Positions 1-61,809 of a stretch of DNA of 64,000 bases are shown here, one piece after another (positions within the stretch are counted from its first letter, which is position 1; each line of letters begins with the position of its first letter). The notes under the pieces are model-generated. The model ran no database searches, was not told where the DNA came from, and saw only the letters and a list, made by a program, of their open reading frames with translations. A program made the position numbers and the translations under genes. This stretch comes from Pachysolen tannophilus NRRL Y-2460 (Eukaryota): assembly GCA_001661245.1 (NCBI GenBank), contig KV454013.1, forward strand, positions 1,024,502-1,088,501, in the 5' to 3' direction.

Positions 1-744
1 CAATGAAGGAAATAAAGGTTTATAATATCCATTTTTAACATCATAATCTTTGAGTCTAGGTTGTACCAAAGCACTTCCCAAGAATAAGCTATGTGGCATC
101 ACTGTAGCTCCTAATATTCCCAAACTCAAATACACAGCCTTTTGCTCCAACACCACTTTTGAACTTGGTAAAAATCCTAAAAATAATGCCTTCTTATCAT
201 CAATATGAATCTTAAACAACAAACTAATAAAACAGAAACATGTAAGTGCCACTAAGGAACTAACAAACAGTTCAAAAATTCTAACTTGTTTCATAGTACC
301 TTCATCTCTATAAGCAAATAGCACAATTACAACATCCAAAGCTGTTACTAAAATCCCAATTTTCAATGGAATATTAAACAAAAGCTCAAGAGAAATCGCA
401 GTACCAACAACTTCAGCTAAATCTGTTGCAACAATGGCAATTTCTGTCAATATATATATCAACAAACTAAGACGCTTATCCATATGTAGCCTGCACATTT
501 CAGCAAGGTTCAAACCTGTTACAGAACCCAATTTAATACATAAAGACTGAAGCAACACCGCAAAAAGATTCGAAATACATATAGTAAATAGTAAATGATA
601 TTGATAGTTCCCTCCTGCACTCACTGAAGTCGAATAATTTCCTGGGTCCAAATATGCAACACTAACTAATATTCCAGGACCAATAAACTTTACATATTTA
701 AATATTATTGCCTTAAAAGAAACCCATCTGTCTACTTGATTCAT
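1..744 (-). CDS. SMF3: NRAMP divalent metal transporter, Smf3-like (3' part runs off the window start; missing from the ORF track)
   Basis: Manual translation from ATG at 744 gives MNQVDRWVSFKAIILKYVKFIGPGILVSVAYLDPGNYSTSVSAGG...TDLAEVVGTAI...GATVMPHSLFLGS, in frame to base 1. It has the NRAMP DPGN and MPH motifs. The short N-terminus and GPGILVSVAY/FAVLLQ resemble Smf3 more than Smf1 or Smf2. Confidence 0.85.
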   Translation of the reverse strand, partial: MNQVDRWVSFKAIIFKYVKFIGPGILVSVAYLDPGNYSTSVSAGGNYQYHLLFTICISNLFAVLLQSLCIKLGSVTGLNLAEMCRLHMDKRLSLLIYILTEIAIVATDLAEVVGTAISLELLFNIPLKIGILVTALDVVIVLFAYRDEGTMKQVRIFELFVSSLVALTCFCFISLLFKIHIDDKKALFLGFLPSSKVVLEQKAVYLSLGILGATVMPHSLFLGSALVQPRLKDYDVKNGYYKPLFPSL

Positions 745-1316
745 GACAACTTTCTTTAACGTTCTAATTTCTCTTTATCTAGTCTACTCTAGTCTAGTCT
801 AGTCCAGTCCAATACCCAATCTACTACTCCTTAAAACTTAAACCCTTCACTGTTCTTTACAGCTTTTAATCAATATATAAAGTAATAGAAAGAAATGTTT
901 TTGTCTCTTCACCAACTTAACGTGTATTATACTTTAGGCATCCAGTGCGGCTCATTTCTAAAGAAAGTTCACATTCTTTTTGAGCGGTCTTCACCAGGTG
1001 ATGGAGGTCAATAGAACTAGACATAGGATTAGGAAAAGGTAGATATAAAAGTGTGTTTTTCGATCAGATGTTTGATAGATTGTCTATAGAGAGATATTTT
1101 AGTAGAATTTGGAAGAACTTTAGCAGAAACTTAACAGCTCTGGTCATTTTTTTAACCACAAAGCCATATACATTATTACATTTGAAGAAAAAAAAAGAAA
1201 GCAAAAAGCAAAATCATTAAAAGAACAAGAAACTCCAAAGCAAATGACGACAGACCACCCAGGCGGAATAAGAAAAAAAAAACAGTGATTTCAACCAGTT
1301 AGCATGATTGTTTTAA

Positions 1317-3134
1317 TTAGATACCGTCTCTAGCGACTTGGACTATGGCATATATGTTCAACATACTGATGAATATCCATACCAGGGTTGCAATGACAGT
1401 AGTTACCCAATTGTTTGCTACGATTTTATATTTCTTATCTGTTACCTCGTTTTCATTTTCGGAGTATCTTCTGTGAGTGTAATTATTTGTGATGGTAGTT
1501 TCTGGATGTTGCGTATCAACATTGCTATTATTAGTTTCATTTTCTAAATCATTTAATTCAATTTCATGGAAAATGTTATCAGAATTTTTATTTTTATTGT
1601 CGTTATCGTTATCATTATTTGGTCTATGGAAATCATTATTTGAAATATCAACTCTCATAATTTTTTTACTGCTTGTAAAATATATTAAAGGTGCAATCAA
1701 AAATGGTAATAATATGGATAATACAACCTGACTTGCATTTAAAGCATTACTCAATCCACTTTTACCAATACATAGAGTAATAATTAAACAAGGTACAATT
1801 GCTATTGATCGAGTTGCTAATCTTCTTTGCCAAGGTTTTAAATTCCAATTAATGTGACCTTCAGAGACAATTTGACCTGCAATTGTACAAACAATACCGG
1901 CCGATTGTCCCGAACAAAGTAATGCTAACATGAAAACAGTTGATACTGCTGGAGATATAGTTTGTGCTAATAACGTATGAATAGTATACAAGTCTGCATC
2001 AATTGCTTGTTCTGTACCATATAACGTAGATCCTGCAACTATTAATATTGCTGAATTAACGAAAAGAGCAAATGTAAATAAATTTAAAGCCAATTCTATA
2101 ATTGAAAATTTTAATGCATATTTGATAGCTTTAAGACTTGGTTTATAATCAAAATATGATTCTTCATTTTCTTCTGCATTTTCTGATAATTGTATATACC
2201 CATTTTGTAAATCGTATTCTCTTAATCTTGGTTGTACCAAACCAGAACCCAAGAATAGAGAATGAGGCATAACCGTTGCACCCAAGATAGAAGCTGCAGT
2301 ATATATCCCACCATTTTGAAGTATTTCACTTGAAGGTAAATAACCTCTAAAGATTTTCCCAACTGATTGTTGAGGGATATATGATAATTCAATACAAAAG
2401 CAAACCACAACGGCAAGAACTAATACTGCAACAGCGTATTCAAACATTTTAACAAATTTCAAAGAAGATCCTGGTCTATATGCCATCAACACAAATAACA
2501 CATCTGTTATTGTCAATATTACACCAGCAGGTAACGGAACTTTTATCAATACGTTAAGAGCAATGGCAGTTCCTATAACTTCAGCAATATCTGTTGCAAC
2601 AATAGCACATTCGGCAAATGCATAAATTGTATAGTTCAACCAATTTGGTAAATATAATCGACATGCTCTTGAAAGGTCTAACCCAGTAACTGAACCTAAT
2701 TTAATACATAAAGTCTGTAAGAAAATAGCAATAATATTAGACAACAAGATAACAAATAATAATGAAAACTTATTTGAAGCACCACCAGAGATATCTGTAG
2801 AATAATTTCCAGGATCCATATAAGCAACACTAATCATTAATCCTGGACCAACAAATGAAATATACTTGCCCAAAATTTTCTTCAACGTAGCCCATTTTCC
2901 ACCACCATTCTGATTTCCAGTTTGACATCCATCTTGGTTCTTAGTTTCTTCATTTAATCCTTGATTCTGGTTATTCTCATGTTCTTCTTTACTAATAGTC
3001 GTATTATGTGAAGGTTTCCTATTCACCGGACTAGACCCACTAATCCCCCCATATAATGTGTGTGTTAACATTTCATTTGGAGGAAGATCAACAGAGTGAT
3101 TATAATGGTCATTATGATGATTATGGATACTCAT
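1317..3134 (-). CDS. SMF1: NRAMP manganese/divalent metal transporter Smf1
   Basis: GPGLMISVAYMDPGNY, GASNKFSLL, LGSVTGLDLSRACR, AECAIVATDIAEVIGTAIALN, GATVMPHSLFLGS and GQIVSEGHINW match recalled Smf1 motifs. Long hydrophilic N-terminal tail. Confidence 0.92.
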   Translation of the reverse strand: MSIHNHHNDHYNHSVDLPPNEMLTHTLYGGISGSSPVNRKPSHNTTISKEEHENNQNQGLNEETKNQDGCQTGNQNGGGKWATLKKILGKYISFVGPGLMISVAYMDPGNYSTDISGGASNKFSLLFVILLSNIIAIFLQTLCIKLGSVTGLDLSRACRLYLPNWLNYTIYAFAECAIVATDIAEVIGTAIALNVLIKVPLPAGVILTITDVLFVLMAYRPGSSLKFVKMFEYAVAVLVLAVVVCFCIELSYIPQQSVGKIFRGYLPSSEILQNGGIYTAASILGATVMPHSLFLGSGLVQPRLREYDLQNGYIQLSENAEENEESYFDYKPSLKAIKYALKFSIIELALNLFTFALFVNSAILIVAGSTLYGTEQAIDADLYTIHTLLAQTISPAVSTVFMLALLCSGQSAGIVCTIAGQIVSEGHINWNLKPWQRRLATRSIAIVPCLIITLCIGKSGLSNALNASQVVLSILLPFLIAPLIYFTSSKKIMRVDISNNDFHRPNNDNDNDNKNKNSDNIFHEIELNDLENETNNSNVDTQHPETTITNNYTHRRYSENENEVTDKKYKIVANNWVTTVIATLVWIFISMLNIYAIVQVARDGI

Positions 3135-6311: not shown

Positions 6312-6971
6312 TTACCTGATGATTCTAGTAATTGGAGTTTGATAATGGTTTTTTCTTGTATTTCTCGATATTGGAGTAGAAGATAAATCACTCGCAGTGC
6401 TAGCACTTCTCATGACTATATCGTTTGCTTCATCGGTCTTGGTATTTAGCGGAACGCCATTATTATCGCCATCATCATCACTGTCATCACCATCAAAGTC
6501 AAAAGAATCATCATTAGTACCACTGGTATCGTTGTTATTATGATCATTATCTACAGACAATGCTTGCTTATTTAAATGTTTCAAAATCGTATTATCTCGT
6601 ATATCACCACTGCTATTATTATTGTTGGCCTCATTCAAAAAAATTTGTAAATCTAAATCTTGCCATATATTATTTGTCAATAATTTCTTACCAAGTCCAT
6701 TCAATCCATTGATATTGGCGCTTCCTCCAAACTGTTGATTCAAATATGGCCGATTGCTGGCTAATTCTTCTTCATCCTCCTCATCTATCAATATCGCATT
6801 CTTCAAGAAATTAGAATTTTGAAACTGCATCGATTGTTGCTGCTGTAACAAGATAGCATTAAAATCTATATCATTAAATGGTAATTTATCGTTGATCCAT
6901 CTCTCCAAATATAATACATGATGAGAGTTCGACATATGTATATAGTTCTTCTGAGAATCCCTTGCCGGCAT
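6312..6971 (-). CDS. SWM1: Anaphase-promoting complex subunit Apc13/Swm1-like
   Basis: The N-terminal RDS...H...HHVLY.E.W..D.LP..D and the downstream WQDLDL motif resemble the Apc13 family. The rest is low-complexity and acidic. Confidence 0.7.
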   Translation of the reverse strand: MPARDSQKNYIHMSNSHHVLYLERWINDKLPFNDIDFNAILLQQQQSMQFQNSNFLKNAILIDEEDEEELASNRPYLNQQFGGSANINGLNGLGKKLLTNNIWQDLDLQIFLNEANNNNSSGDIRDNTILKHLNKQALSVDNDHNNNDTSGTNDDSFDFDGDDSDDDGDNNGVPLNTKTDEANDIVMRSASTASDLSSTPISRNTRKNHYQTPITRIIR

Positions 6972-7215
6972 CGCTAATATTCACTATCAAGAACTTATAA
7001 AATTAATGTATTCATCATATAGTTAAACTAAACATCTTTATATTTTTGTTTTTTTTAATTTTTTAAACTGCTTTTAAAATGTTTGTGCTGCGTTTAATTG
7101 TCCAAAAGTAAACAAACAAATCAGATAACACTAAAGAAAGAAGAGGTGAAATAGAAAAAGAATATATATATATATATATATATATAGATATAGATTATAG
7201 AATGAGTCTGAGATA

Positions 7216-8760
7216 ATGCCAATCAAGAGGATTTCGCAACAAACAGTTAGTTCTTTAAGTTCTATAGCTTCTGTGTTCAATGTAACTTCAGTGGTGAAAG
7301 AATTAATTGATAATTCATTAGACGCTGATTCAAGCCATATTAATATAGAAGTGGATTATGAAACTGGTGGATTAAGGCATTGTCTTGTGAGGGATAACGG
7401 TTGTGGTGTGACGAAATTGGATCGGCCATTAATGTGTTGCAATTGTACTACATCGAAACTATCATCTAATTCTGAAATAACAAAGAAATCTATATTTGCA
7501 AATGTTTCAACATTGGGGTTTAGAGGTGAAGCGTTATTTTTCATTTCTCAATTAATTTCAGTAAGTGATAACAGAAGTGGATCCAGAAGTGGATCTAGAA
7601 ATGGTTCAATGACCATTACCACAAGGACTGCAAAGGATCAGATGGGAGAAATGTGGAGCATCATGGGCCAAGGTTTACCAGATGGTTTACCAAAATCTGT
7701 AGCGGCGGCTATTGGAACGTGTATTACTTTGGAAGGATTATTCAGTAGTTCCGTAGTAAGAAAGAAATTGTTAATGAGGCAATCAAGGAAAACTATAGAA
7801 GATATTAGAAAATTAATAATTAGTTATGCTATGACTTACCCAGAACTAAGATTTACCTTTAAATTGATGGAAGTTAAAACCAACGGAGAAATTTGTATTT
7901 CAAGTCATAACAATAAGAATGGATTAATTATAAACCCATGCAGCTCGCAATTATCGTTATTATCGCAACAGTATCAAATACGAAATCCAAAAAATTCATT
8001 CTTTGAAGGAGAAATAGAAACGGAAACAAAAAATTGTCATAACATCCAAGGTGAAGAGGAAGAAGTCGAGTACAAGTTATCTTATGTACTTCCTTTGATG
8101 AATGGGACTTCCGAGGCTTCATCTAAAAACTCCAACACTTTTCTCGCTGTTAATAATAGGCCTTTAGATTTAAAGTCTTCGGTATTATTCAAAGAAATTA
8201 GGAATATGTTGAATTCAGTTTACGAAAAACTCAATTTACTAAGACCAAATATTTGGATTTTAAATATTATTATATTAAATAATGAAAACTTGGATGTTAA
8301 TATTGAGCCTCTGAAAAATGATGTTTTAATTTTCAAACAAAAGGAATTTTTAAGAATTTTGGAAAATGAATTACATGTTATTGTAGCTAATAATCATGGC
8401 TTAAATTATTCTGATGAATTCTCAAACAGAATTGGCAAAAATAAAATTAAAGAAACTGAAAATGAAGAACTGTTAGACGATTCAAAATATGTTGTTTTTC
8501 GTGGTTCAGATTCGGGTTCAGCAAACTCTTTGAAAGGTCCCAATGATGAATTTGAAATCAGCAATGAAATTGCTGATGATGAAACTTCAAATTTGAATGC
8601 AATTGAGATATCAAATGATCAAGACGGCAAAGATTGGAGTTTTCATACTCATGATTTTTTTTCACAAGAATTAATTGGAAACGGGGATGAAATTCACAGT
8701 GAAGCTAGAGATGGAACCAATGGACTGAACACTGATGATTATATCTTTTATAAAAAATAA
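7216..8760 (+). CDS. MLH2: MutL-family mismatch-repair protein, Mlh2-like; N-terminal GHKL ATPase and transducer part only (apparently truncated by an inversion near 8740)
   Basis: VKELIDNSLDA, DNGCGV, TSK, TLGFRGEAL, VNNRP and DVNIEP(CTG=A)K are MutL motifs. The ORF stops abruptly in the linker. Subfamily assignment is an inference, supported by proximity to SMF3 as in S. cerevisiae. Confidence 0.8.
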   Translation: MPIKRISQQTVSSLSSIASVFNVTSVVKELIDNSLDADSSHINIEVDYETGGLRHCLVRDNGCGVTKLDRPLMCCNCTTSKLSSNSEITKKSIFANVSTLGFRGEALFFISQLISVSDNRSGSRSGSRNGSMTITTRTAKDQMGEMWSIMGQGLPDGLPKSVAAAIGTCITLEGLFSSSVVRKKLLMRQSRKTIEDIRKLIISYAMTYPELRFTFKLMEVKTNGEICISSHNNKNGLIINPCSSQLSLLSQQYQIRNPKNSFFEGEIETETKNCHNIQGEEEEVEYKLSYVLPLMNGTSEASSKNSNTFLAVNNRPLDLKSSVLFKEIRNMLNSVYEKLNLLRPNIWILNIIILNNENLDVNIEPLKNDVLIFKQKEFLRILENELHVIVANNHGLNYSDEFSNRIGKNKIKETENEELLDDSKYVVFRGSDSGSANSLKGPNDEFEISNEIADDETSNLNAIEISNDQDGKDWSFHTHDFFSQELIGNGDEIHSEARDGTNGLNTDDYIFYKK

Positions 8761-8985
8761 TAAACTCTTCACCTAGTCGAAATCTAAGCTTGGTTTGAAT
8801 TTCTTCTCTTTCTTCTTTTTCTTTTTCTTTTTTTTTTTTTTGCCAGATTTGAAGTCGCCGTTGCACGACATTTGGCGGATCAAGAGAACTATGACCAACT
8901 ACGATGAGCTACGATGAACTGAAGCAATCTACGAAGGAAGTGGAATAGATAATGGTGAAAGATGAAAAGTGGAGCTATAGTATAT

Positions 8986-9723
8986 TCAGTGAAGATGCAT
9001 GTGAGTGATTCCTCCTTTCTTCTTTTCGAAAATGAAATCTTGCTTACTGTATGTAATATCGGTAATAGTGCTGTTTCCAGAAACTAGACTTTTATAGTTT
9101 TCAATAACCCAATTTGATATACTCTCATTTACTGGATTTTTTTCCTGTCCCAACCATGCTTCTTCCTGTTGGAAAACGCAAAGAGTTTTCTTTGTAATCT
9201 CATTTTCCTTGAGGGCTAAAAGTGTGGTTGCCAAGTTAAATGTGTTTTCTGAAAACTTATCCAAGGGAAATTGATTATAATCAGAATTGGCAATATTCAG
9301 GCCAATATTTGTACCAATATTTGTACTAATATTTGAAGTGATTGAGTTTGAATTTTCTTTTTTGTAAAATGGTCTATGAGAAGTTTTTTTATTCTTTGAT
9401 TTTGCAACATTATTTTTTGTTATAGATTTGGGCCTGCCATTCAAAACATTTCTCCAAGACTTGTTGAATAAAGTATCATCATTGAGGTTCACCTCGTTTA
9501 ATATCTCTATATCGTCATCCTGACCTTCAGAATCAACCGTAGTCGACTCTTCATTATGATTATGAGTACTGAAAATACTAGTGTTTGGTGTTGTTAATAT
9601 TGCTGATAAATTATCTTCATCTACTACTCTTCTATTTGATTTCAAAAGTGCAAATGGATTCGATAAGGAAATATCATTAGCAATTGTTAAGTCTTCATGT
9701 TCCGGAGATGATAAGCTGGTATA
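8986..9723 (-). pseudogene. Displaced C-terminal third of the MLH2-like gene, on the opposite strand (no start ATG of its own)
   Basis: The open frame YTSLSSPEHEDLTIANDISLSNPFALLKSNRR...HMHLH* has no initiating ATG (the track start is TTG 9645). It joins in frame to codon 508 of the 7216 ORF if ~8740-9723 is reverse-complemented. Confidence 0.65.
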
Positions 9724-9734
9724 TTTGAGCTTGA

Positions 9735-12700
9735 ATGGATTATTTTGGGTGAGTGAATTGATTTTTGCAAGTTTTGATTTTATATTTTTTTTTTAGCGAG
9801 GAGAGGAATACTAACATATAGATTGATTATTGGTGAAATTATAGTGTTCCTTATGGCACTATACGTGCTAAAGCATTGGATAAATTGACAACGTTATCGG
9901 TATCTAAATCACAGTTTATCAATAATGAGGATGATTCTTTGAAAAGAATTGCTTCTGTCATTACTGTGGCAAAGCAATCGGAGATATCATCGGTTCCGGT
10001 TGCTTTTAAGGAAGTTCAAATTTTATTAGGGTTAAGTAAATGTTGTTCAACAGTTGAAGATTACGAAAAAGCGGATTTAATATTTCGTAAAATAATACCA
10101 TATTTTTTGGAAATACCGAATCATCAAGAGTTTACAAATGCTTCAATATTGAGGTTAGAACCAAATCCGTGGAATTTGTTGACAAAAAATTTGACTAATG
10201 GAATAATTGAATTAAGTGCCAAATTTCCAAAAATTTCATCTGAAACCATTGATTTATTCTTGAGCTTTTTATCACAATTTGATCCTTCCAATAGAAGTGA
10301 ATATAAATTTTTCAATTTTTTCTCCTTATGTGGTTTCTTGGAGGCCATTACTGAGAATCCAAAAATTTTCAAACAAAGTACTGGTAGTAAAATTTTAGAA
10401 TCTGTGATTTCACTTTTTAGTGACGATTTTTTGAATATTATAGAACAAACTTCAGAACATGAATCTGCTGTATTATCTGTACAATTTACAGATTTAGTCC
10501 AAAGAATAATTATCAGTTATTATGGTGTATTAGTGAACTGTGATAAAGAAAACTTGAGTGAATTTTTGTTGGAGCAAACTGCAAGGAAAATTGATAGAAT
10601 ACGGGATGAAAACAATGATATTATCGAGGATGGATCGATATTAACTGAAAATATCGAACTTAGTGACAAACAGATTGGATTAATAACAAAATTAACAAAC
10701 TTTAGTTTATCTCAAATTGAATCTATAGAAGAAGGTGCACAGTACATATCTTTATCAACAGACTCTCGTCTCTATATGGTTTATTGTACAAAAGCTCATG
10801 CTTTACAGTCACTCAGTTTTAGTTTCCACATGAATATATTACCATTCAATGATGAAAGATTATCAAATATATTGTTCAACAGTTTTTCTCACCCACATGG
10901 GTTGAAAAATCATCTTTTATGTTCTACATTAGTTTCAGTTGCATCATTATTATGCTTTAAAGATCCTGTAAATGCTGGAGAAATGTTATCAAGATTTTAT
11001 CCCTTATTAATCGTCTCTCCAGATTTACAGGAAAATATTGCTAAAGATACCGCCAAATCATTGGCATTAGGTTCAAAAGCCTTACCTCAAGAAAACGTTA
11101 TAAGTACAGTGTATTCACTTATTAATTTAATCACCGTAAATCAAGATGGTACACCAACAAAGCCAATTTTAAAATCATCAGGTACTCATGTTTCAGTTTA
11201 TACTCCACCTCAAACACATAGCTCAAATCATCCTTCTAACGGCAATGCATTCACTAATGGACTTAGATCTTATACAATCAACTCCGCCATTTCAATTAAT
11301 GATTATATTCCACCACAGACCGAGTCTGATTTAATTGCCGTTTGTATTCATATTTTTAAAAATGTTGTAAATGCTTGTTCTCAACTTGTGCGTTATTATG
11401 ATAATGACAATATTACAGCTTTGGTCATCACTTTGCTATCTCAAAAAATGAACCAATCTCTTTTAGTTCCTTTGTTAGTTGACGGTTTAGCAAAGTGTGC
11501 TCCATATTCTCAAGAAAGACAATTTAAAATTTTGATGAGACTTTATCGTGATTTGGCCAATCAATCATTCCCAAAGAAAAAACCAGAAATATTGACTGCT
11601 GTTACTAATGCTAGAATATTGATTTCAAAATTGCTTGGTGATGATCATCCGTTGTACCAAGTTTATCTTCATGAGTTATTAACAGGTATCATAAGCAAAG
11701 GTGATGTGCAAAAGGATGAACATCATAGGTCTCATTCAGAAATTTCTCGTGTCGCCACTGAAATTTCTCAATTCTTGAAACCATTAGCACATTTATTACC
11801 AGATGTTTCTGATCCTTCGAAGGACTTCTCAAGTGACCTTCCAACAGTTGAATATTTTAAGAATGTTTGGTATAATATGGTTGTTCATGGATACTCATTG
11901 AACTCTGAATTGAAAGCTCAGTATTCTGATGAACTAGAAAGAATTGCCCACAGTTCTCCTCCATTAGCTTCAGAATCATCCTGGAATAGAACAGAAACTT
12001 CTTTAGAACTTAATTCAGTGCTACGTCGTGGCTCTTCAAGCCATAATATTAGGCATCAAAAAGAATTTGTAGATGATATTTGTGATACAAACCTTATTCA
12101 AATTCATGCCATTTCAACAGCAAAGGTTATGTTTTTAGCCGCAGCAGTTTTCTTGGAGAGCTTAAGGGTTAAAAGCGGTAATTGTTCAACGGCTTTAATT
12201 TATTTCTCCGATCCTAGTATTAAAATATCACAAGTTGAAGAATATATTGGCTCCTTAGCTGTTAAAATCACTTCAAAATTTGTAGATTTAATAGCTTACG
12301 GAGGAAATAATGCTTATTCTATTGAAAACATTGCTATTGAATTAAAAAAAATGTTAGTTTTATGTTGTCACAGAGAGAAAGATTTACAAGCTTCTGCTTT
12401 CCAATGTTGTGAGATTCTAATCAGTCGTATCCCATCATCACTTTGCCATCATAAAAGTTTGTTTACTATGCTAGATATATTAACATTATTATTTCAAAGT
12501 ATTGTTGATGCAGATGCAGATGAATACGAGCCACGCTTTACATTTAGATTGAAGAACTCAGATACAACAATTACTGTATCAGATTCTTTAAAATGGAGGA
12601 AGAAAACTTTTCAAAAATTTTATGAAAAAGCTAGAAAATGGGTTAGATTAAGTTTGTTGAGATGTAACCAAGATATGAAGTCCCTTTTGCAATCTTATAT

Positions 12701-15503
12701 TTCAACTGTCGATAAATTCAAGAGAGTAAGCCAAGTTGAGTTGGGTATCTCCTTTGCACTTGAAATGGCTGGAACAATTTTACCAAGTGATAAGGAGTTA
12801 TCGAACATTCCGCAGCTGAGTAACGTAAACACTGTTTCTGGATTTTTATCACAATTTAGTTGGACTAGTAGCTTTAAAAATGATATTATTGAAAAGCTTA
12901 CTTCGCATAGCGTACCAGACGCTGAAAGGCTTTCAAGAGGTATACGTTCACAACTATTGTTAATCAAGGATAAGTTAGCCAATCATGAAAAAGTGTCAGA
13001 AGCTGCATTCATTAGTTCTTTGGAGGATTCAACTGAATTAGTTATTTTATCGTCTAAAAATAATGCTGAGCTAGTCCGTCTCCTAGTTCATATTCCTTTT
13101 GCAATCTTTACTTCCGACTCAATGAAAGTGGGTGTTGGTCTTTGGTTAACTCTTATCAAGGAAAAACCAGGTCTATCTTCGTTTTTGTTATCTCACATTG
13201 CTGCAGAGTGGGAAGTTTCAATAAGACAGCGCAAAGGTTTATTTTCGAATAAGTTTGATCTTGCTAAGCCTGAATTTTGCTATATGAAATATTTGCCAAG
13301 TGATAAGAATGCTATTAATCATTCGTCCCATATTGCCATAGAATACTTAGAGCCCCATCTGCAATTAATCCATATGTTACAATCACATTTTCAAGCCACT
13401 ATGTATCAGAGTGACCATTTGCTAAAAATTTTCACTAGAATTGTTTTAGTCGGATTGAGGAATTTTCTGACAGCAAGTTTACATCCTTTTTCAAGATTAG
13501 TGAGATTTGAGTTGATTAAGTTATCCATTGACATATTGAACGTTCACATCAAATTAGGTTCTAGGTATAATTATGTACTTATGAAAAATATTTTATTAGC
13601 AAGTTTGAGTTGGTTCAAGAGAAGAGGTTCATTTCCATACGGTGGTAATCAAATCAGGACAAAAACAGATTACGATTTACTTCAAGAAATTCTGAGTTCT
13701 GTATCTAATATGAGGCCGCCTAATTCATTGGTAGATTCCAAGTTGTTATTGTTAACTTTTCTTCATGATGAGTTAAATAATATCGCATGCTGGTTGAATC
13801 CTCTTGATCCTCTGGAAGCTGAAGGTATACACTCAAAGTTTGGTTTTGATGAAAAATTATTGACTGCTGCTTACAAATTAGATCCATTATTGGCTATTAA
13901 TTTTACGTTGCGCTTTAAAACGAAATCATTGAATGAAGGACTAAGACGTTTACTTTTGGAAGATCCAATCAGCTCCATAAATTACCCAGATGCTATCCAA
14001 TATTTGGTAAGTCCTGAGACTAAAAGTATTAACATGTATCAACTTCTCTTTTGGAAGCCCTCATCTGTTATTGATTGTATCAATTTATTATTACTATTTT
14101 CATCCAACCCTTATATCATCCAATATAGCTTTAGATCGTTGGAAATTCACGACGTTAACTTGACATTTTTCTATGTTCCTCAAATAGTTCAGGCTTTAAG
14201 ATATGATTCAAATGGTTATGTTGAAAGGTTTATTTTAGAGACTGCAAAAGTGTCACAGCTTTTTGCTCACCAAATCATTTGGAATATGAAAGCCAACAGT
14301 TATAAAGATGATGAGGCAACTATTCCTGATACGTTAAAGCCAGCATTAGATCGTATTCTCAAAAGTATGTTAAGCTCTTTTGACAAAGAAGATCTACAGT
14401 TTTTCAAAAGAGAATTTTCATTTTTTGAAGATATAACTGGTATTTCAGGAAAGTTGAAGCCATATATTAAAAAAACTAAAGCAGAGAAGAAGGCTAAAAT
14501 TGATGAAGAAATGGCTAAAATTGTTATCCAGCCAGACGTCTATTTACCTAGTAATCCTGATGGTGTTATAGTAAATATCAATCGTCAATCAGGAAAACCG
14601 TTACAATCTCACGCCAAAGCTCCATTTATGGCAAGCTTTAAGATACGTAAAGAAGTTCATCGAATTGAGGAAGATGATGATCTCGAACAGCCTCTGAAAT
14701 GCGAACCAGAATATGAAGAGACATGGCTTGGAGCAATTTTTAAAGTTGGTGATGATTGTAGACAGGACGTTTTGGCTTTACAGTTGATATCTGTATTTCG
14801 AACTATTTGGGAGAACTCTGGCTTAGATTTGTTTGTATTCCCATATCGTGTTACAGCAACAGCCCCAGGATGTGGTGTCATTGATGTTTTGCCTAATTCG
14901 ATTTCTCGTGACATGTTAGGACGGGAAGCCGTCAACGGATTATATCAATATTTTATAACACGATTTGGTCCAGAAACTTCTATTGAATTTCAAGAAGCTA
15001 GGAATAACTTTGTCAAATCCTTAGCAGCCTATTCTGTGATTTCATATCTATTGCAATTTAAAGATCGTCACAATGGTAATATCATGTATGACGATAAAGG
15101 TCACATTTTACATATTGATTTTGGTTTTTGCTTTGATATTGTTCCTGGAGGGGTCAAATTTGAGCAGTCACCATTTAAATTAACAAGAGAAATGATTGAT
15201 GTGCTTGGTGGAGGAAGAGACACCCAGGCCTTTCGTTGGTTTGAAGAATTATGTGTCAAAGGGTTTTTAGCTGCTAGACCTTATATGGAGATTATTGTTA
15301 GATGTACAATTCCAATGTTGGATAGTGGATTACCATGCTTTAAACCTTCAACTATTAAAAATTTAAGAAGTAGATTTATTCCTAACAAATCCGAGAAAGA
15401 GGCAGCTCGTCATATGAAACGTTTGATCAACAAATCTTATGAGAGTCTTGCTACCAAAGGTTATGATGAATTTCAACGTCTTACCAATGGTATTCCCTAC
15501 TGA
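9735..15503 (+). CDS. STT4: Phosphatidylinositol 4-kinase type III-alpha Stt4; exons 9735-9748 and 9845-15503
   Basis: The spliced N-terminus reads MDYFGVPYGTIRAKALDKL. The C-terminal PI4K domain has FFYVPQIVQALRYD, LQSHAKAPF, FKVGDDCRQDVLALQ, KDRHNGNI, HIDFGF and FQRLTNGIPY. Confidence 0.96.
9749..9844 (+). other. Spliceosomal intron of STT4 (96 nt)
   Basis: 5' GTGAGT at 9749, branch point TACTAAC at 9809-9815, 3' TAG ending at 9844. Splicing joins ATG 9735 in frame to the long ORF. Confidence 0.9.
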
Positions 15504-38211: not shown

Positions 38212-39424
38212 TATTCAGTGAGATCCAATAATATTAAGTACCCAACAATAATTACGTTAATAAATACACTACGCTAAATAATTATATATGTATATGACTA
38301 ACAACAACAGAGATAGTAGCTTTATTAGCACTAGTAGCGGTAGTAAATAAATAAAATAGGTATTTTTGATTTTATATATAAACTGAAAAAAAAAAGGAAA
38401 AAGGAAGAAGAAAAAGAAAATAAAACTTAATATAAGATTGATTGATTTATTATATTAAATTATTGAATAAATTAATTATTTATTTATTTAGTGGATAAAT
38501 TTTTTCTTTTTGGACACTTATGAAAGGTAGGTAAAAAGGAGGGGTTCTTACACATATAACAAACATCAACTTAGTTTTAAAAAGAATACTTTCTCGCTTT
38601 ATTTGTTTGTTTCCGGTACGACGGCCTATAAGTTTTTAACTTTTTACATTTACATTTACATTTACAAGTACATTTTCATGCGTTGCGCCGCCCTGGAACC
38701 CTCATATCTCCCACGCTTGATCAGTGGTCTAATCTCGTATCGCGGGCCAATAAAAGATTTTTAATTATTAAACACTACTACTAATTGTAAATAGTATGAT
38801 ATATATAGTACAATAATAGTATGTTATGGTATGCCGGATTCGGGCCTGAATCCGAATGAAAAAAAAAGAAAAAAAAAAAAAAACAAACCTGCACCACTCA
38901 CACCACTTGCTTTTTTTGTACGCCACTCTTACTTGCCACTCATTCTACTCTCGCCACTAACTTAATTTGAGGTATTTGGTATTTGAGCTTAACCAACCTT
39001 TGCACCACATGTATAACAGAACATAACAAGCACCGCTCATAATTGACACGTGATGCACTTTTTCAAATTTCAAAATTTTCTATCTGTCACTCAGCTCACT
39101 CACTACTACTACCAACCATCACCACCAAAGAAAAGAGAGAAGAAGGAAAAACCCTGCATAATCTATACTACAACGTTATAAATAAAAGATGAAAAATTTT
39201 ACGCTTCTATGGTAAAAATATGCTACCAAAAGGTGATGGCAAGAATATATATATATTACTATATAATTTAAATTTTTTTAAGTGATGACAAAACCAAAAA
39301 CTAACCAAGAAAAATTTTTTTTTNTTTTTTTTTTTTTTTTTTCTTTTAACAGCGGCAAGAAAAAAGAAAAGAAAAAGAAAAAAAAAAAAACACAGCACAA
39401 AAATTATATGGTAGTGCACGTTTG

Positions 39425-42261: not shown

Positions 42262-42868
42262 NNNNNNNNNNNNNNNNNNNNNNNNNNNNNNNNNNNNNNN
42301 NNNNNNNNNNNNNNNNNNNNNNNNNNNNNNNNNNNNNNNNNNNNNNNNNNNNNNNNNNNNNNNNNNNNNNNNNNNNNNNNNNNNNNNNNNNNNNNNNNNN
42401 NNNNNNNNNNNNNNNNNNNNNNNNNNNNNNNNNNNNNNNNNNNNNNNNNNNNNNNNNNNNNNNNNNNNNNNNNNNNNNNNNNNNNNNNNNNNNNNNNNNN
42501 NNNNNNNNNNNNNNNNNNNNNNNNNNNNNNNNNNNNNNNNNNNNNNNNNNNNNNNNNNNNNNNNNNNNNNNNNNNNNNNNNNNNNNNNNNNNNNNNNNNN
42601 NNNNNNNNNNNNNNNNNNNNNNNNNNNNNNNNNNNNNNNNNNNNNNNNNNNNNNNNNNNNNNNNNNNNNNNNNNNNNNNNNNNNNNNNNNNNNNNNNNNN
42701 NNNNNNNNNNNNNNNNNNNNNNNNNNNNNNNNNNNNNNNNNNNNNNNNNNNNNNNNNNNNNNNNNNNNNNNNNNNNNNNNNNNNNNNNNNNNNNNNNNNN
42801 NNNNNNNNNNNNNNNNNNNNNNNNNNNNNNNNNNNNNNNNNNNNNNNNNNNNNNNNNNNNNNNNNNNN
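42262..42868. other. Assembly gap (607 N) flanked by poly-T tracts
   Basis: Run of N in the sequence. Confidence 0.99.
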
Positions 42869-59322: not shown

Positions 59323-59826
59323 TTCCTCAACCTCTTTGACTTCTCCATTATCTTATTTTTTCAAACTATTTGAACAAAACTCTCAATGTGATCTCTAACC
59401 ATCATAATATATATACAAAATTATTAGGAAAAGAGAGAGAGAGAGAGAGAAAAAGGAGATAAGAGCCATTACTCCTTTTGGAAATAATATTTTTTTTTTA
59501 ATTTTCTTTATCTCCGGCAAATTCCTCTTTAAGAAATTGAGTTATTGGTGCACACCTTTAGTAATATTGTATAATAAAAATTACTCTTTTGGGAACTCTT
59601 TGGTGGGTTGGGACACGACTAGAAATTTGATAAATTTTTTTTTAAGTGATAAATTAGTAAATTGGGGAACGACCTAAATTTCTTATCAAATCAATGGCAG
59701 AAAGTAGGCGGAAAGTAGAAGGTAAGCACCGCAGGAGATTTCAAGGGTCTGGCGGAAAAAAATAGTGGGAAGCGAGGGAGAGATGGTACTCAGAGATTGC
59801 GGGTTCGGCTGGTGGGAGGAAAACAG

Positions 59827-59946
59827 GCCAGAGATCCCACTAGGGAGCCGGCGCGAGAGTTGGCCAGAGAGTTGGCTAAGGCCCCGGCTAGAGAGCCCGC
59901 TAGAGAACAGGGAAAAGAGCAGGAGGAACAACAGGAGAAAGAGCTG
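59827..59946 (+). repeat. Degenerate 12-bp tandem repeat (10 units) within a GC-rich island
   Basis: gccagagatccc/actagggagccg/gcgcgagagttg/gccagagagttg/gctaaggccccg/gctagagagccc/gctagagaacag/ggaaaagagcag/gaggaacaacag/gagaaagagctg. Confidence 0.7.
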
Positions 59947-60103
59947 GACCAATCCGCCTTTTCCTGAATCAATTGGAATAGTTTTAATTTAATTTATAAT
60001 TGCTCTTCAACACAAGAGAATTACCACACAATTAATTAATTTCTAATCCTATTTTCATGATTTTAGTATTCTTTTATAGACCAAGAAGGATTTTCCCATA
60101 AAA

Positions 60104-61069: not shown

Positions 61070-61233
61070 TTTATATAATTTATAGACATAAGAAACAGTT
61101 TATTTATAATGGGTGAAAAAAAAAATAGATAAAATTAAAATAAAATCAACTTGTAAAAATATACAAATAACCTTTTAATTCAAAGCAAGTGTGTGAAGCA
61201 AGAACTCTTTTCTTCTTTACTATCTTTAAAGAT

Positions 61234-61809
61234 ATGAGTAGCAAGTTATGTGGAATATGTAATTCCAATGAGTCAAGATATAAATGTCCTAAATGTGGAA
61301 TAAAATAGTATGTTAATTCCATAATATATCTTTTTAACAATACAATTTTTTTACTAACTTTGGTATATAATTATAGTTGTTCGGTGACTTGTTTTAAATC
61401 TGAACTGCACATCCATGATCATACCAAAGAGACCGATGTTAATGGGGAAAATGTTATTAGCTTAGAGCCTCAAGAGGATCATGATGTTGAAAGTGGTTCT
61501 GGTACTAGTGTTGATGATGATGATAAATTATTTCAAAAACTTTTAAATGATCCAAAAATTAAGCTGTTATTACAAGAAAAGACATTAAGATTCCACCTAA
61601 CGGTATTATTCAAGATTTTAAATGATCCAAAAATTCTTTCTAAAGAATATGATAAGGAAAATAGATTAGAAATTGCCAATAAGAAATTGGTGAATCTTAG
61701 AGTTAAAGGTATAGAAGAAAATGAATTAGTTGAAGAATTTTGCTGTCGAGTAATTGAACTATTGGAAGAAGATGATAAAAGAGACAAGAATGATAATTTA
61801 CGGATATGA
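61234..61809 (+). CDS. HIT1: zf-HIT box C/D snoRNP assembly factor Hit1; exons 61234-61307 and 61377-61809 (168 aa)
   Basis: The spliced product MSSKLCGICNSNESRYKCPKCGIKY|CSVTCFK completes a HIT zinc finger. The C-terminus has L..LR..G.EENELVEEFC. Confidence 0.9.
61308..61376 (+). other. Spliceosomal intron of HIT1 (69 nt)
   Basis: GTATGT at 61308, TACTAAC at 61352-61358, TAG ending at 61376. Confidence 0.93.

What the first reader, a model, noticed from the sequence alone, without database searches (positions are those of the whole stretch)
8740..9723. Apparent ~980-bp inversion splits the MLH2-like gene and flips the STT4 promoter
Seen in sequence: the MutL ORF on + ends abruptly (…NTDDYIFYKK*). 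A coding-like frame with no start ATG lies on the minus strand from ~9723 to 8986 and runs right up to the STT4 ATG (9735), leaving STT4 with no obvious promoter. Reverse-complementing the segment between the palindromic TATA at 8740-8743 and the TATA at 9720-9723 gives one uninterrupted ORF, …NTDD-YTSLSSPEHEDLTIANDISLSNPFALLK…HMHLH* (508+245 = 753 aa). The same flip places the non-coding stretch 8744-8985 (poly-A, A-rich leader-like sequence) directly upstream of the STT4 ATG. Inference: DISLSNPF resembles a linker motif I recall from fungal Mlh2/PMS1-like proteins. Other in-frame breakpoints a few bases away are possible. There are no long inverted repeats, so a programmed recombinase switch is unlikely. 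It is either a real micro-inversion, which would inactivate a mismatch-repair/meiotic gene and rewire a normally essential lipid kinase, or a mis-assembly.
Basis: partly seen in the sequence, partly recalled or inferred. Interest (0 to 1): 0.85.

Follow-up and report, generated by a model that had tools for sequence, protein, structure and literature searches.

The report
Assembly flip, not a broken gene
A 1-kb piece of this yeast genome assembly is written backwards and seems to cut a DNA-repair gene (MLH2) in two, but public sequencing data from two samples show the piece the right way round and the gene whole, so this is most likely an assembly error rather than biology.

Summary
The split is in the window, but almost certainly not in the yeast. 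The minus-strand frame is the missing C-terminal third of an Mlh2-family protein: a profile from 60 homologue tails ranks it first of 463 window frames (E 5e-12; 0 of 1000 shuffles). Contigs from 3 of 3 informative public runs (two samples, two studies) cross both junctions in the opposite orientation, at flanking depth, and none shows the window's order. The true breakpoints are 8716|8717 and 9707|9708: flush, 1 bp of ambiguity, no repeat. Re-oriented, the gene encodes 740 aa (not 753) and STT4 regains a 296-bp upstream region. The same runs also correct a homopolymer length nearby. The scan noted similar 0.5-1.1-kb gene-splitting flips at four other loci of this genome (RPS22, REG1, ADE2, an HxnR-like gene; unchecked notes). 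Best reading: a misoriented short segment in a draft assembly (about 0.88). A private inversion in the sequenced culture (0.09) or a rare switch (0.03) cannot be excluded, because contigs drop rare variants. The value is a correction: the public 514-aa protein is truncated.

The parts
7216..8716 (+). MLH2-like gene, 5' part (codons 1-500 plus one base): GHKL ATPase domain, S5/transducer domain, start of the linker
   Evidence: Pfam HATPase_c_3 and DNA_mis_repair; homologues; tree with a named MLH2; one contig per run covers 7201-8716/8717
8717..9707 (.). 991-bp segment that lies reversed in the window relative to read-derived contigs (equivalently 8718-9706; C8717 pairs with G9707)
   Evidence: Opposite-strand joints 8716/8717-9707/9706 and 8718/8717-9707/9708 in runs X1, X3, X5, with no letters between; the two descriptions give the same sequence
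8986..9707 (-). MLH2-like gene, 3' part (rest of codon 501 to the stop; 239 whole codons, 8989-9705): SNPF linker motif and C-terminal domain
   Evidence: Top of 463 window frames against a profile of 60 homologue tails, E 5.1e-12, 0 of 1000 shuffles; coding-like codon use
8717..8985 (-). MLH2 3' end and STT4 upstream region (269 bp; 14-nt A run; TATAWAWR match 63 nt before the STT4 ATG in the read-supported order). In the window it supplies the last 14 residues of the truncated 514-aa product on the + strand
   Evidence: promoter function is inferred, not shown
9708..9734 (+). 27 bp of STT4 leader outside the flipped segment; begins with a 6-codon upstream ORF (9708-9728)
   Evidence: Read from the sequence
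9735..15503 (+). STT4 (PI 4-kinase): 14-nt first exon 9735-9748, intron 9749-9844, long second exon; coding sequence untouched by the flip
   Evidence: Pfam PI4K_N, PI3Ka, PI3_PI4_kinase; public model P0124, 1890 aa; splice signals
9784..9794 (+). Poly-T run in the STT4 intron that is one T shorter in the window than in all three informative runs
   Evidence: table 4

Best explanation
The locus is ordinary: an intact MLH2 gene (740 aa, MutL homologue without endonuclease motif) lies head-to-tail with STT4, 296 bp apart. The draft assembly carries 991 bp of it in the wrong orientation, joined flush at both ends. Shown: the two pieces belong to one Mlh2-family protein; the majority DNA in two sequenced samples has the intact order; the breakpoints carry no repeat. 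Inferred: the reversed order exists only in the assembly. Also inferred, and untested: it arose when a short contig or block was placed between its neighbours with the wrong strand sign, which would give flush, loss-free joints and the 0.5-1.1-kb size seen at the other flagged loci.
For: (1) X1, X3 (sample S1, study P1) and X5 (sample S2, study P2) each have one 2433-nt contig running 7201-8716/8717 straight into 9707/9706 on the other strand, and a second contig joining 8718/8717 to 9707/9708. Depths are 126/129, 171/190 and 67/74, the same as over the flanks, with at least 82 letters on the short side. (2) The two listed contigs per run account for the reported depth in both junction bins to within 0.1, so no further record covers either window-type junction; a 61-nt contig of depth 2 would have added 0.7. 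(3) The argument does not depend on where the window came from: if S1 is its source, the assembly contradicts its own reads; if not, two other samples with no substitution over about 4.2 kb are intact. (4) The same three runs differ from the window at a homopolymer (one more T behind 9784), a second discrepancy of a kind typical of assembly or base-calling error ('typical' is general knowledge). (5) The 3' piece has no stop and keeps family motifs, so it has not decayed. The re-oriented tail scores 49.4 bits against the family profile; the window's own tail scores 6.1. (6) Lead only: earlier notes of the scan describe four more small gene-splitting flips in this genome, including ADE2 and RPS22 (not checked here).
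Against: All runs laid are contigs, which drop rare variants, so a minority of reversed molecules is not excluded. I cannot show that any of these runs is the DNA the window was built from. A flush join without repeats is not what a k-mer assembler makes (general knowledge), and I found no paper describing this exact artefact, so the route by which the error arose is a guess. No single record spans the whole segment; the two contigs meet in the poly-T run at 8800-8846, which the tool skipped.
Confidence: 0.88

Rival explanations
1. A real, private inversion: two breaks 991 bp apart were rejoined blunt in the opposite order in the one culture used for the assembly. That would truncate Mlh2 to 514 aa and put MLH2 coding sequence in front of the last 27 bp of the STT4 leader.
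For: The joints are balanced and flush, as end-joining of two breaks would leave them. Loss of MLH2 alone is nearly silent for mutation rate in S. cerevisiae (PMC4014439, passages), so the truncation could be tolerated. The source DNA of the window is not identified.
Against: Absent from 3 of 3 informative runs of two samples that match the window without a substitution. It would also remove the upstream region of STT4, normally an important gene (own knowledge). If the other noted flips are of the same kind, one culture would need several such events, including in ADE2 and RPS22 (unchecked notes).
Confidence: 0.09
2. A reversible or recurrent inversion that is present in a minority of cells, which the assembler happened to follow: a repeat-free switch that controls MLH2 integrity and STT4 expression together.
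For: Contigs drop rare variants. This species has a real programmed inversion at its mating-type locus (PMC6692504, passages).
Against: That known switch is 8 kb long with 2-kb inverted repeats. Here the inverted homology is 1 bp and no repeat family or inverted repeat sits at the joints. No extra depth in the junction bins. An assembler would normally follow the majority form.
Confidence: 0.03
3. The minus-strand frame is an independent gene or exon, and MLH2 naturally ends at 514 aa.
For: Some relatives are short (553-592 aa). The frame alone had no hit in a word-indexed search of longer proteins or in Pfam.
Against: The frame has no start codon and matches the tails of Mlh2-family proteins along profile positions 116-289 of 308. 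Read-derived contigs join it in frame to the 5' part.
Confidence: 0.005

Closest known systems
Fungal Mlh2 / metazoan PMS1 (MutL-beta subunit), as defined in PMC4014439 (section 12 and passages read)
   Same: MutL N-terminal ATPase and transducer domains, no endonuclease motif, a 740-aa length within the 553-790 range of 60 homologues (floor of 540 aa applied), shared W...SNPF linker motifs, and a 100/99 clade with the MLH2 named for Huiozyma naganishii.
   Different: Nothing unusual once re-oriented, apart from short repeat insertions. The public record holds only the truncated 514-aa form. That paper notes that some fungal MLH2 records carry stops or frameshifts that may be sequence errors.
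Misoriented short segment in a draft genome assembly
   Same: Assembly order contradicted at both junctions by read-derived contigs at full depth; pieces perfectly preserved; a homopolymer discrepancy close by.
   Different: No gap, no N and no repeat at the joints, so it is not the usual repeat-induced or gap-flanked scaffolding inversion (general knowledge). I found no paper on this exact form (listings only).
Flip/flop (FF1) mating-type inversion of Pachysolen tannophilus (PMC6692504, passages)
   Same: An inversion in the same species that changes which sequence lies next to a gene.
   Different: That one is 8 kb, flanked by 2-kb inverted repeats and inducible. This one is 1 kb, has 1 bp of inverted homology, cuts through a coding sequence and is seen in one orientation only in the runs.

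Membership tests
Fungal Mlh2 / PMS1-like MutL homologue | N-terminal GHKL ATPase and S5-like transducer domains | tested here: met
   PF13589 E 4.9e-10, PF01119 E 1.9e-09; MutL, Mlh1 and PMS2 structures hit by sequence
Fungal Mlh2 / PMS1-like MutL homologue | No C-terminal endonuclease motif and no Mlh1-type C-terminus | tested here: met
   No DQHA-type, CxHGRP or FERC motif in the 740-aa re-oriented product (motif letters recalled); no Pfam hit in the 3' part; 62 of 62 top homologues also lack the DQHA-type motif
Fungal Mlh2 / PMS1-like MutL homologue | Groups with Mlh2 in a tree of N-terminal domains | tested here: met
   100/99 clade of 19 of 34 rows that includes the named MLH2 P0156, apart from an Mlh1-domain protein and prokaryotic MutL. 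Limit: no named Pms1 or Mlh3 row was available
Fungal Mlh2 / PMS1-like MutL homologue | Forms a heterodimer with Mlh1 and acts as accessory mismatch-repair factor | not tested
   Known for S. cerevisiae (PMC4014439); no test here
Fungal Mlh2 / PMS1-like MutL homologue | Conserved gene order with other yeast MLH2 loci | not tested
   No yeast genomes with context were available to the tools
Programmed flip/flop inversion | Long inverted repeats flanking the invertible segment | tested here: not met
   1 bp of inverted homology at the read-defined joints; none of the listed repeats lies at them
Programmed flip/flop inversion | Both orientations present in DNA of the organism | tested here: inconclusive
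   Only the intact order in 3 of 3 informative runs, but contigs drop rare variants
Real fixed micro-inversion | Reversed order present in sequencing data of the organism | tested here: not met
   0 of 3 informative runs, two samples
Assembly misorientation | Both junctions crossed in the other order by read-derived sequence at flanking depth | tested here: met
   tables 5 and 8; depth arithmetic
Assembly misorientation | The assembly's own raw reads lack the assembled junctions | not testable with these tools
   Runs are coded and held as contigs; the source of the window is not known

The most novel reading that the evidence does not exclude
The window's junctions came from real molecules. 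This yeast would then make repeat-free, blunt inversions of 0.5-1.1 kb at many loci in a minority of cells (here breaking MLH2 and swapping the STT4 upstream region), and the assembly captured several of them while majority contigs hide them.
Probability: 0.03. Interest if true: 0.7.

Novelty: not a real feature. Interest (0 to 1): 0.12.

Why it matters
As biology it does not: the gene pair is ordinary. As a correction it has modest use. The protein held in NCBI, UniRef, nr and MetaClust for this gene is the 514-aa truncated form, so comparative work on mismatch-repair gene loss would misread it; the read-supported product is 740 aa. It also gives a read-based answer for one of at least five small gene-splitting flips that the scan has flagged in this assembly, and suggests that the others (including the trans-splicing and split-snoRNA ideas at RPS22) should be laid against the same runs before any biology is built on them. 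If the minority-molecule reading were true, it would be an undescribed source of gene-breaking inversions in a yeast.

Tried and rejected
TATA-palindrome breakpoints: rejected by the read-derived joints; in-frame rejoining does not select them (10,160 of 40,000 pairs work). First C-terminal profile from 9 homologues gave only E 0.003; the larger set was needed. Word-indexed search with the 3' piece among longer proteins: no hit, weak evidence by the tool's own note. Cluster look-up as a control (is the truncated protein on fewer contigs than its neighbours?): uninformative, since 3 of 9 neighbours were found, each on one contig as well, and 6 were not in the collection as given. Run X6: one 301-nt contig at depth 4 inside the segment, crossing no joint, uninformative. 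No RNA holder listed. No cover at 6667-7000 in the lay: the tool filters records, so a hole proves nothing; two loose ends near 6620-6650 do not occur elsewhere in the window and come from short partial matches. Metagenome contigs: no exact match to a 31-mer of the segment. No whole genome held, so the other noted flips could not be checked. Scan of the window for further orphan coding frames: none that looks like a second flip among the 15 best-scoring frames shown (codon score only). Literature: 'Pachysolen + MLH2' 0 papers; 'Pachysolen + misassembl + inverted' 1 paper, about mating type; 'Pachysolen tannophilus + inversion + assembly' 8 of 9 listed, none on this by title or abstract start; searches for this artefact type gave nothing specific in the listings. 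No supplements were read; Table S2 of PMC4014439 (MLH2 records with stops or frameshifts) was not seen.

Full report
What is in the window. A MutL-family ORF runs from 7216 to 8760 on the + strand and stops after 514 aa. It has the ATPase and transducer domains and its nearest named relatives come from Kuraishia, Candida arabinofermentans, C. boidinii and Martiniozyma. An open frame of 268 codons lies at 8986-9792 on the - strand, without a usable start, with coding-like codon use (38 bits over intergenic). STT4 begins at 9735, has a 14-nt first exon and a 96-nt intron with GTGAGT, TACTAAC and TAG signals; the public model P0124 starts the same way and carries the label Pachysolen tannophilus. 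The public record of the MutL protein has Ala at 3 of 3 CTG codons, so I translated with table 26.

The two pieces are one gene. I collected homologues with a profile of the 514-aa product and eight relatives, took the 62 best plus first-round hits, dropped 2 shorter than 540 aa, and built a profile from the tails of the remaining 60, without any window sequence. Among 463 stop-to-stop frames of the window, the minus-strand frame ranked first (E 5.1e-12; next best 0.37), aligned over profile positions 116-289 of 308, and 0 of 1000 shuffles reached its score. The set includes a protein named MLH2 (Huiozyma naganishii), and the window's N-terminal domain falls in a 100/99 clade with it (no named Pms1 or Mlh3 row was at hand). 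The product lacks endonuclease and Mlh1-type motifs (motif letters recalled), which is how PMC4014439 characterises Mlh2 (section 12 read).

Where the breaks are. Sequence alone cannot place them: 10,160 of 40,000 breakpoint pairs restore more than 650 aa, and motif spacing is too variable (37-56). Sequencing data can. Six runs hold the stretch or part of it; I could lay four. In X1 and X3 (one sample) and X5 (another sample and study, 2023), one 2433-nt contig runs from 7201 to 8716/8717 and continues without extra letters into 9707/9706 on the other strand. A second contig joins 8718/8717 to 9707/9708 and goes on into STT4. The record coordinates are contiguous across both joints. The reversed block is thus 8717-9707, or equally 8718-9706, because one base pairs across. 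In this order the ORF is 740 aa, MLH2 and STT4 are 296 bp apart, and that spacer holds a 14-nt A run and a TATA-box match 63 nt before the STT4 ATG (promoter role inferred). X6 gave one short contig inside the block and says nothing.

Does the window's order exist anywhere else? Not in what I could see. The junction-crossing contigs have the depth of their flanks, and the two listed contigs per run explain the depth of both junction bins to within 0.1, whereas a 61-nt contig of depth 2 would add 0.7. There is no substitution between the runs and the window over the covered stretch, and one length difference: all three have one more T in the intron's poly-T run. The tool warns that the best holder may be the window's own source. 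Either case points the same way: if so, the assembly disagrees with its own reads; if not, two near-identical samples are intact. Limits: contigs drop rare variants, there are only two samples, no single record spans the whole block, and the source DNA of the window is not identified.

How it most likely arose. Shown: flush, balanced joints with 1 bp of ambiguity and no flanking repeat; no decay of either piece. Inferred: a short block was inserted between its neighbours with the wrong strand sign during assembly or gap filling. I found no paper on this exact artefact (listings only), so the route is a guess. Earlier notes of this scan describe four more flips of 0.5-1.1 kb that split RPS22 and its intronic snoRNA, REG1, ADE2 and an HxnR-like gene in the same genome, one of them said to be missing from independent data. 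I could not check them (no genome held); as leads they fit a recurrent fault of the assembly better than several gene-breaking events in one viable culture.

Rivals. A private real inversion remains possible because MLH2 loss is nearly silent in S. cerevisiae (PMC4014439, passages) and the source culture is unknown; it is absent from 3 of 3 informative runs (0.09). A switch is unlikely: the species' known invertible locus has 2-kb inverted repeats around 8 kb (PMC6692504, passages), and this block has none (0.03). An independent minus-strand gene is refuted.

Verdict. No paper in the library holds both 'Pachysolen' and 'MLH2'. What remains is a correction of a truncated public protein and a way to settle the other flips in this genome. 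Interest 0.12.

Noticed in passing
window 9735-9844 (+): STT4 has a 14-nt first exon and a 96-nt intron with a GTGAGT donor; it agrees with the public model P0124.
   Followed up: yes
window 9784-9794: The poly-T run in the STT4 intron is one T shorter than in all three informative runs.
   Followed up: yes
window 9708-9728 (+): A 6-codon upstream ORF, in frame with and 6 nt before the STT4 ATG, begins exactly at the right breakpoint; it is present in either orientation. Whether it lies in the transcript is unknown.
   Followed up: no
window 7216-8757, codons 366, 419, 504: CTG is given as Ala in the public protein (3 of 3), the known CUG-Ala code (table 26).
   Followed up: partly
window 1-774 (-) and 1317-3134 (-): Two NRAMP-type transporter genes in tandem; the second runs off the window's left end.
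   Followed up: no
window 61171-61806 (+): A small gene that begins with a CxxC...CxxC zinc-finger-like peptide and continues after an in-frame stop, probably across an intron; missed by the ATG-based ORF list.
   Followed up: no
window 7569-7600 and 9291-9335: Short in-frame 12-nt tandem repeats inside the MLH2-like gene (two copies in the ATPase domain, three in the C-terminal part).
   Followed up: no
window 7161-7196: (TA)n tract just upstream of the MLH2-like start; read-derived contigs break there.
   Followed up: no
window 42262-42868, also single N at 39324, 42886, 44089: An assembly gap of 607 N and three isolated N, showing that this is a draft scaffold.
   Followed up: no
window 59719-59964 (+): A purine-rich repeated stretch between two divergent genes that reads as an 82-codon low-complexity frame.
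   Followed up: no
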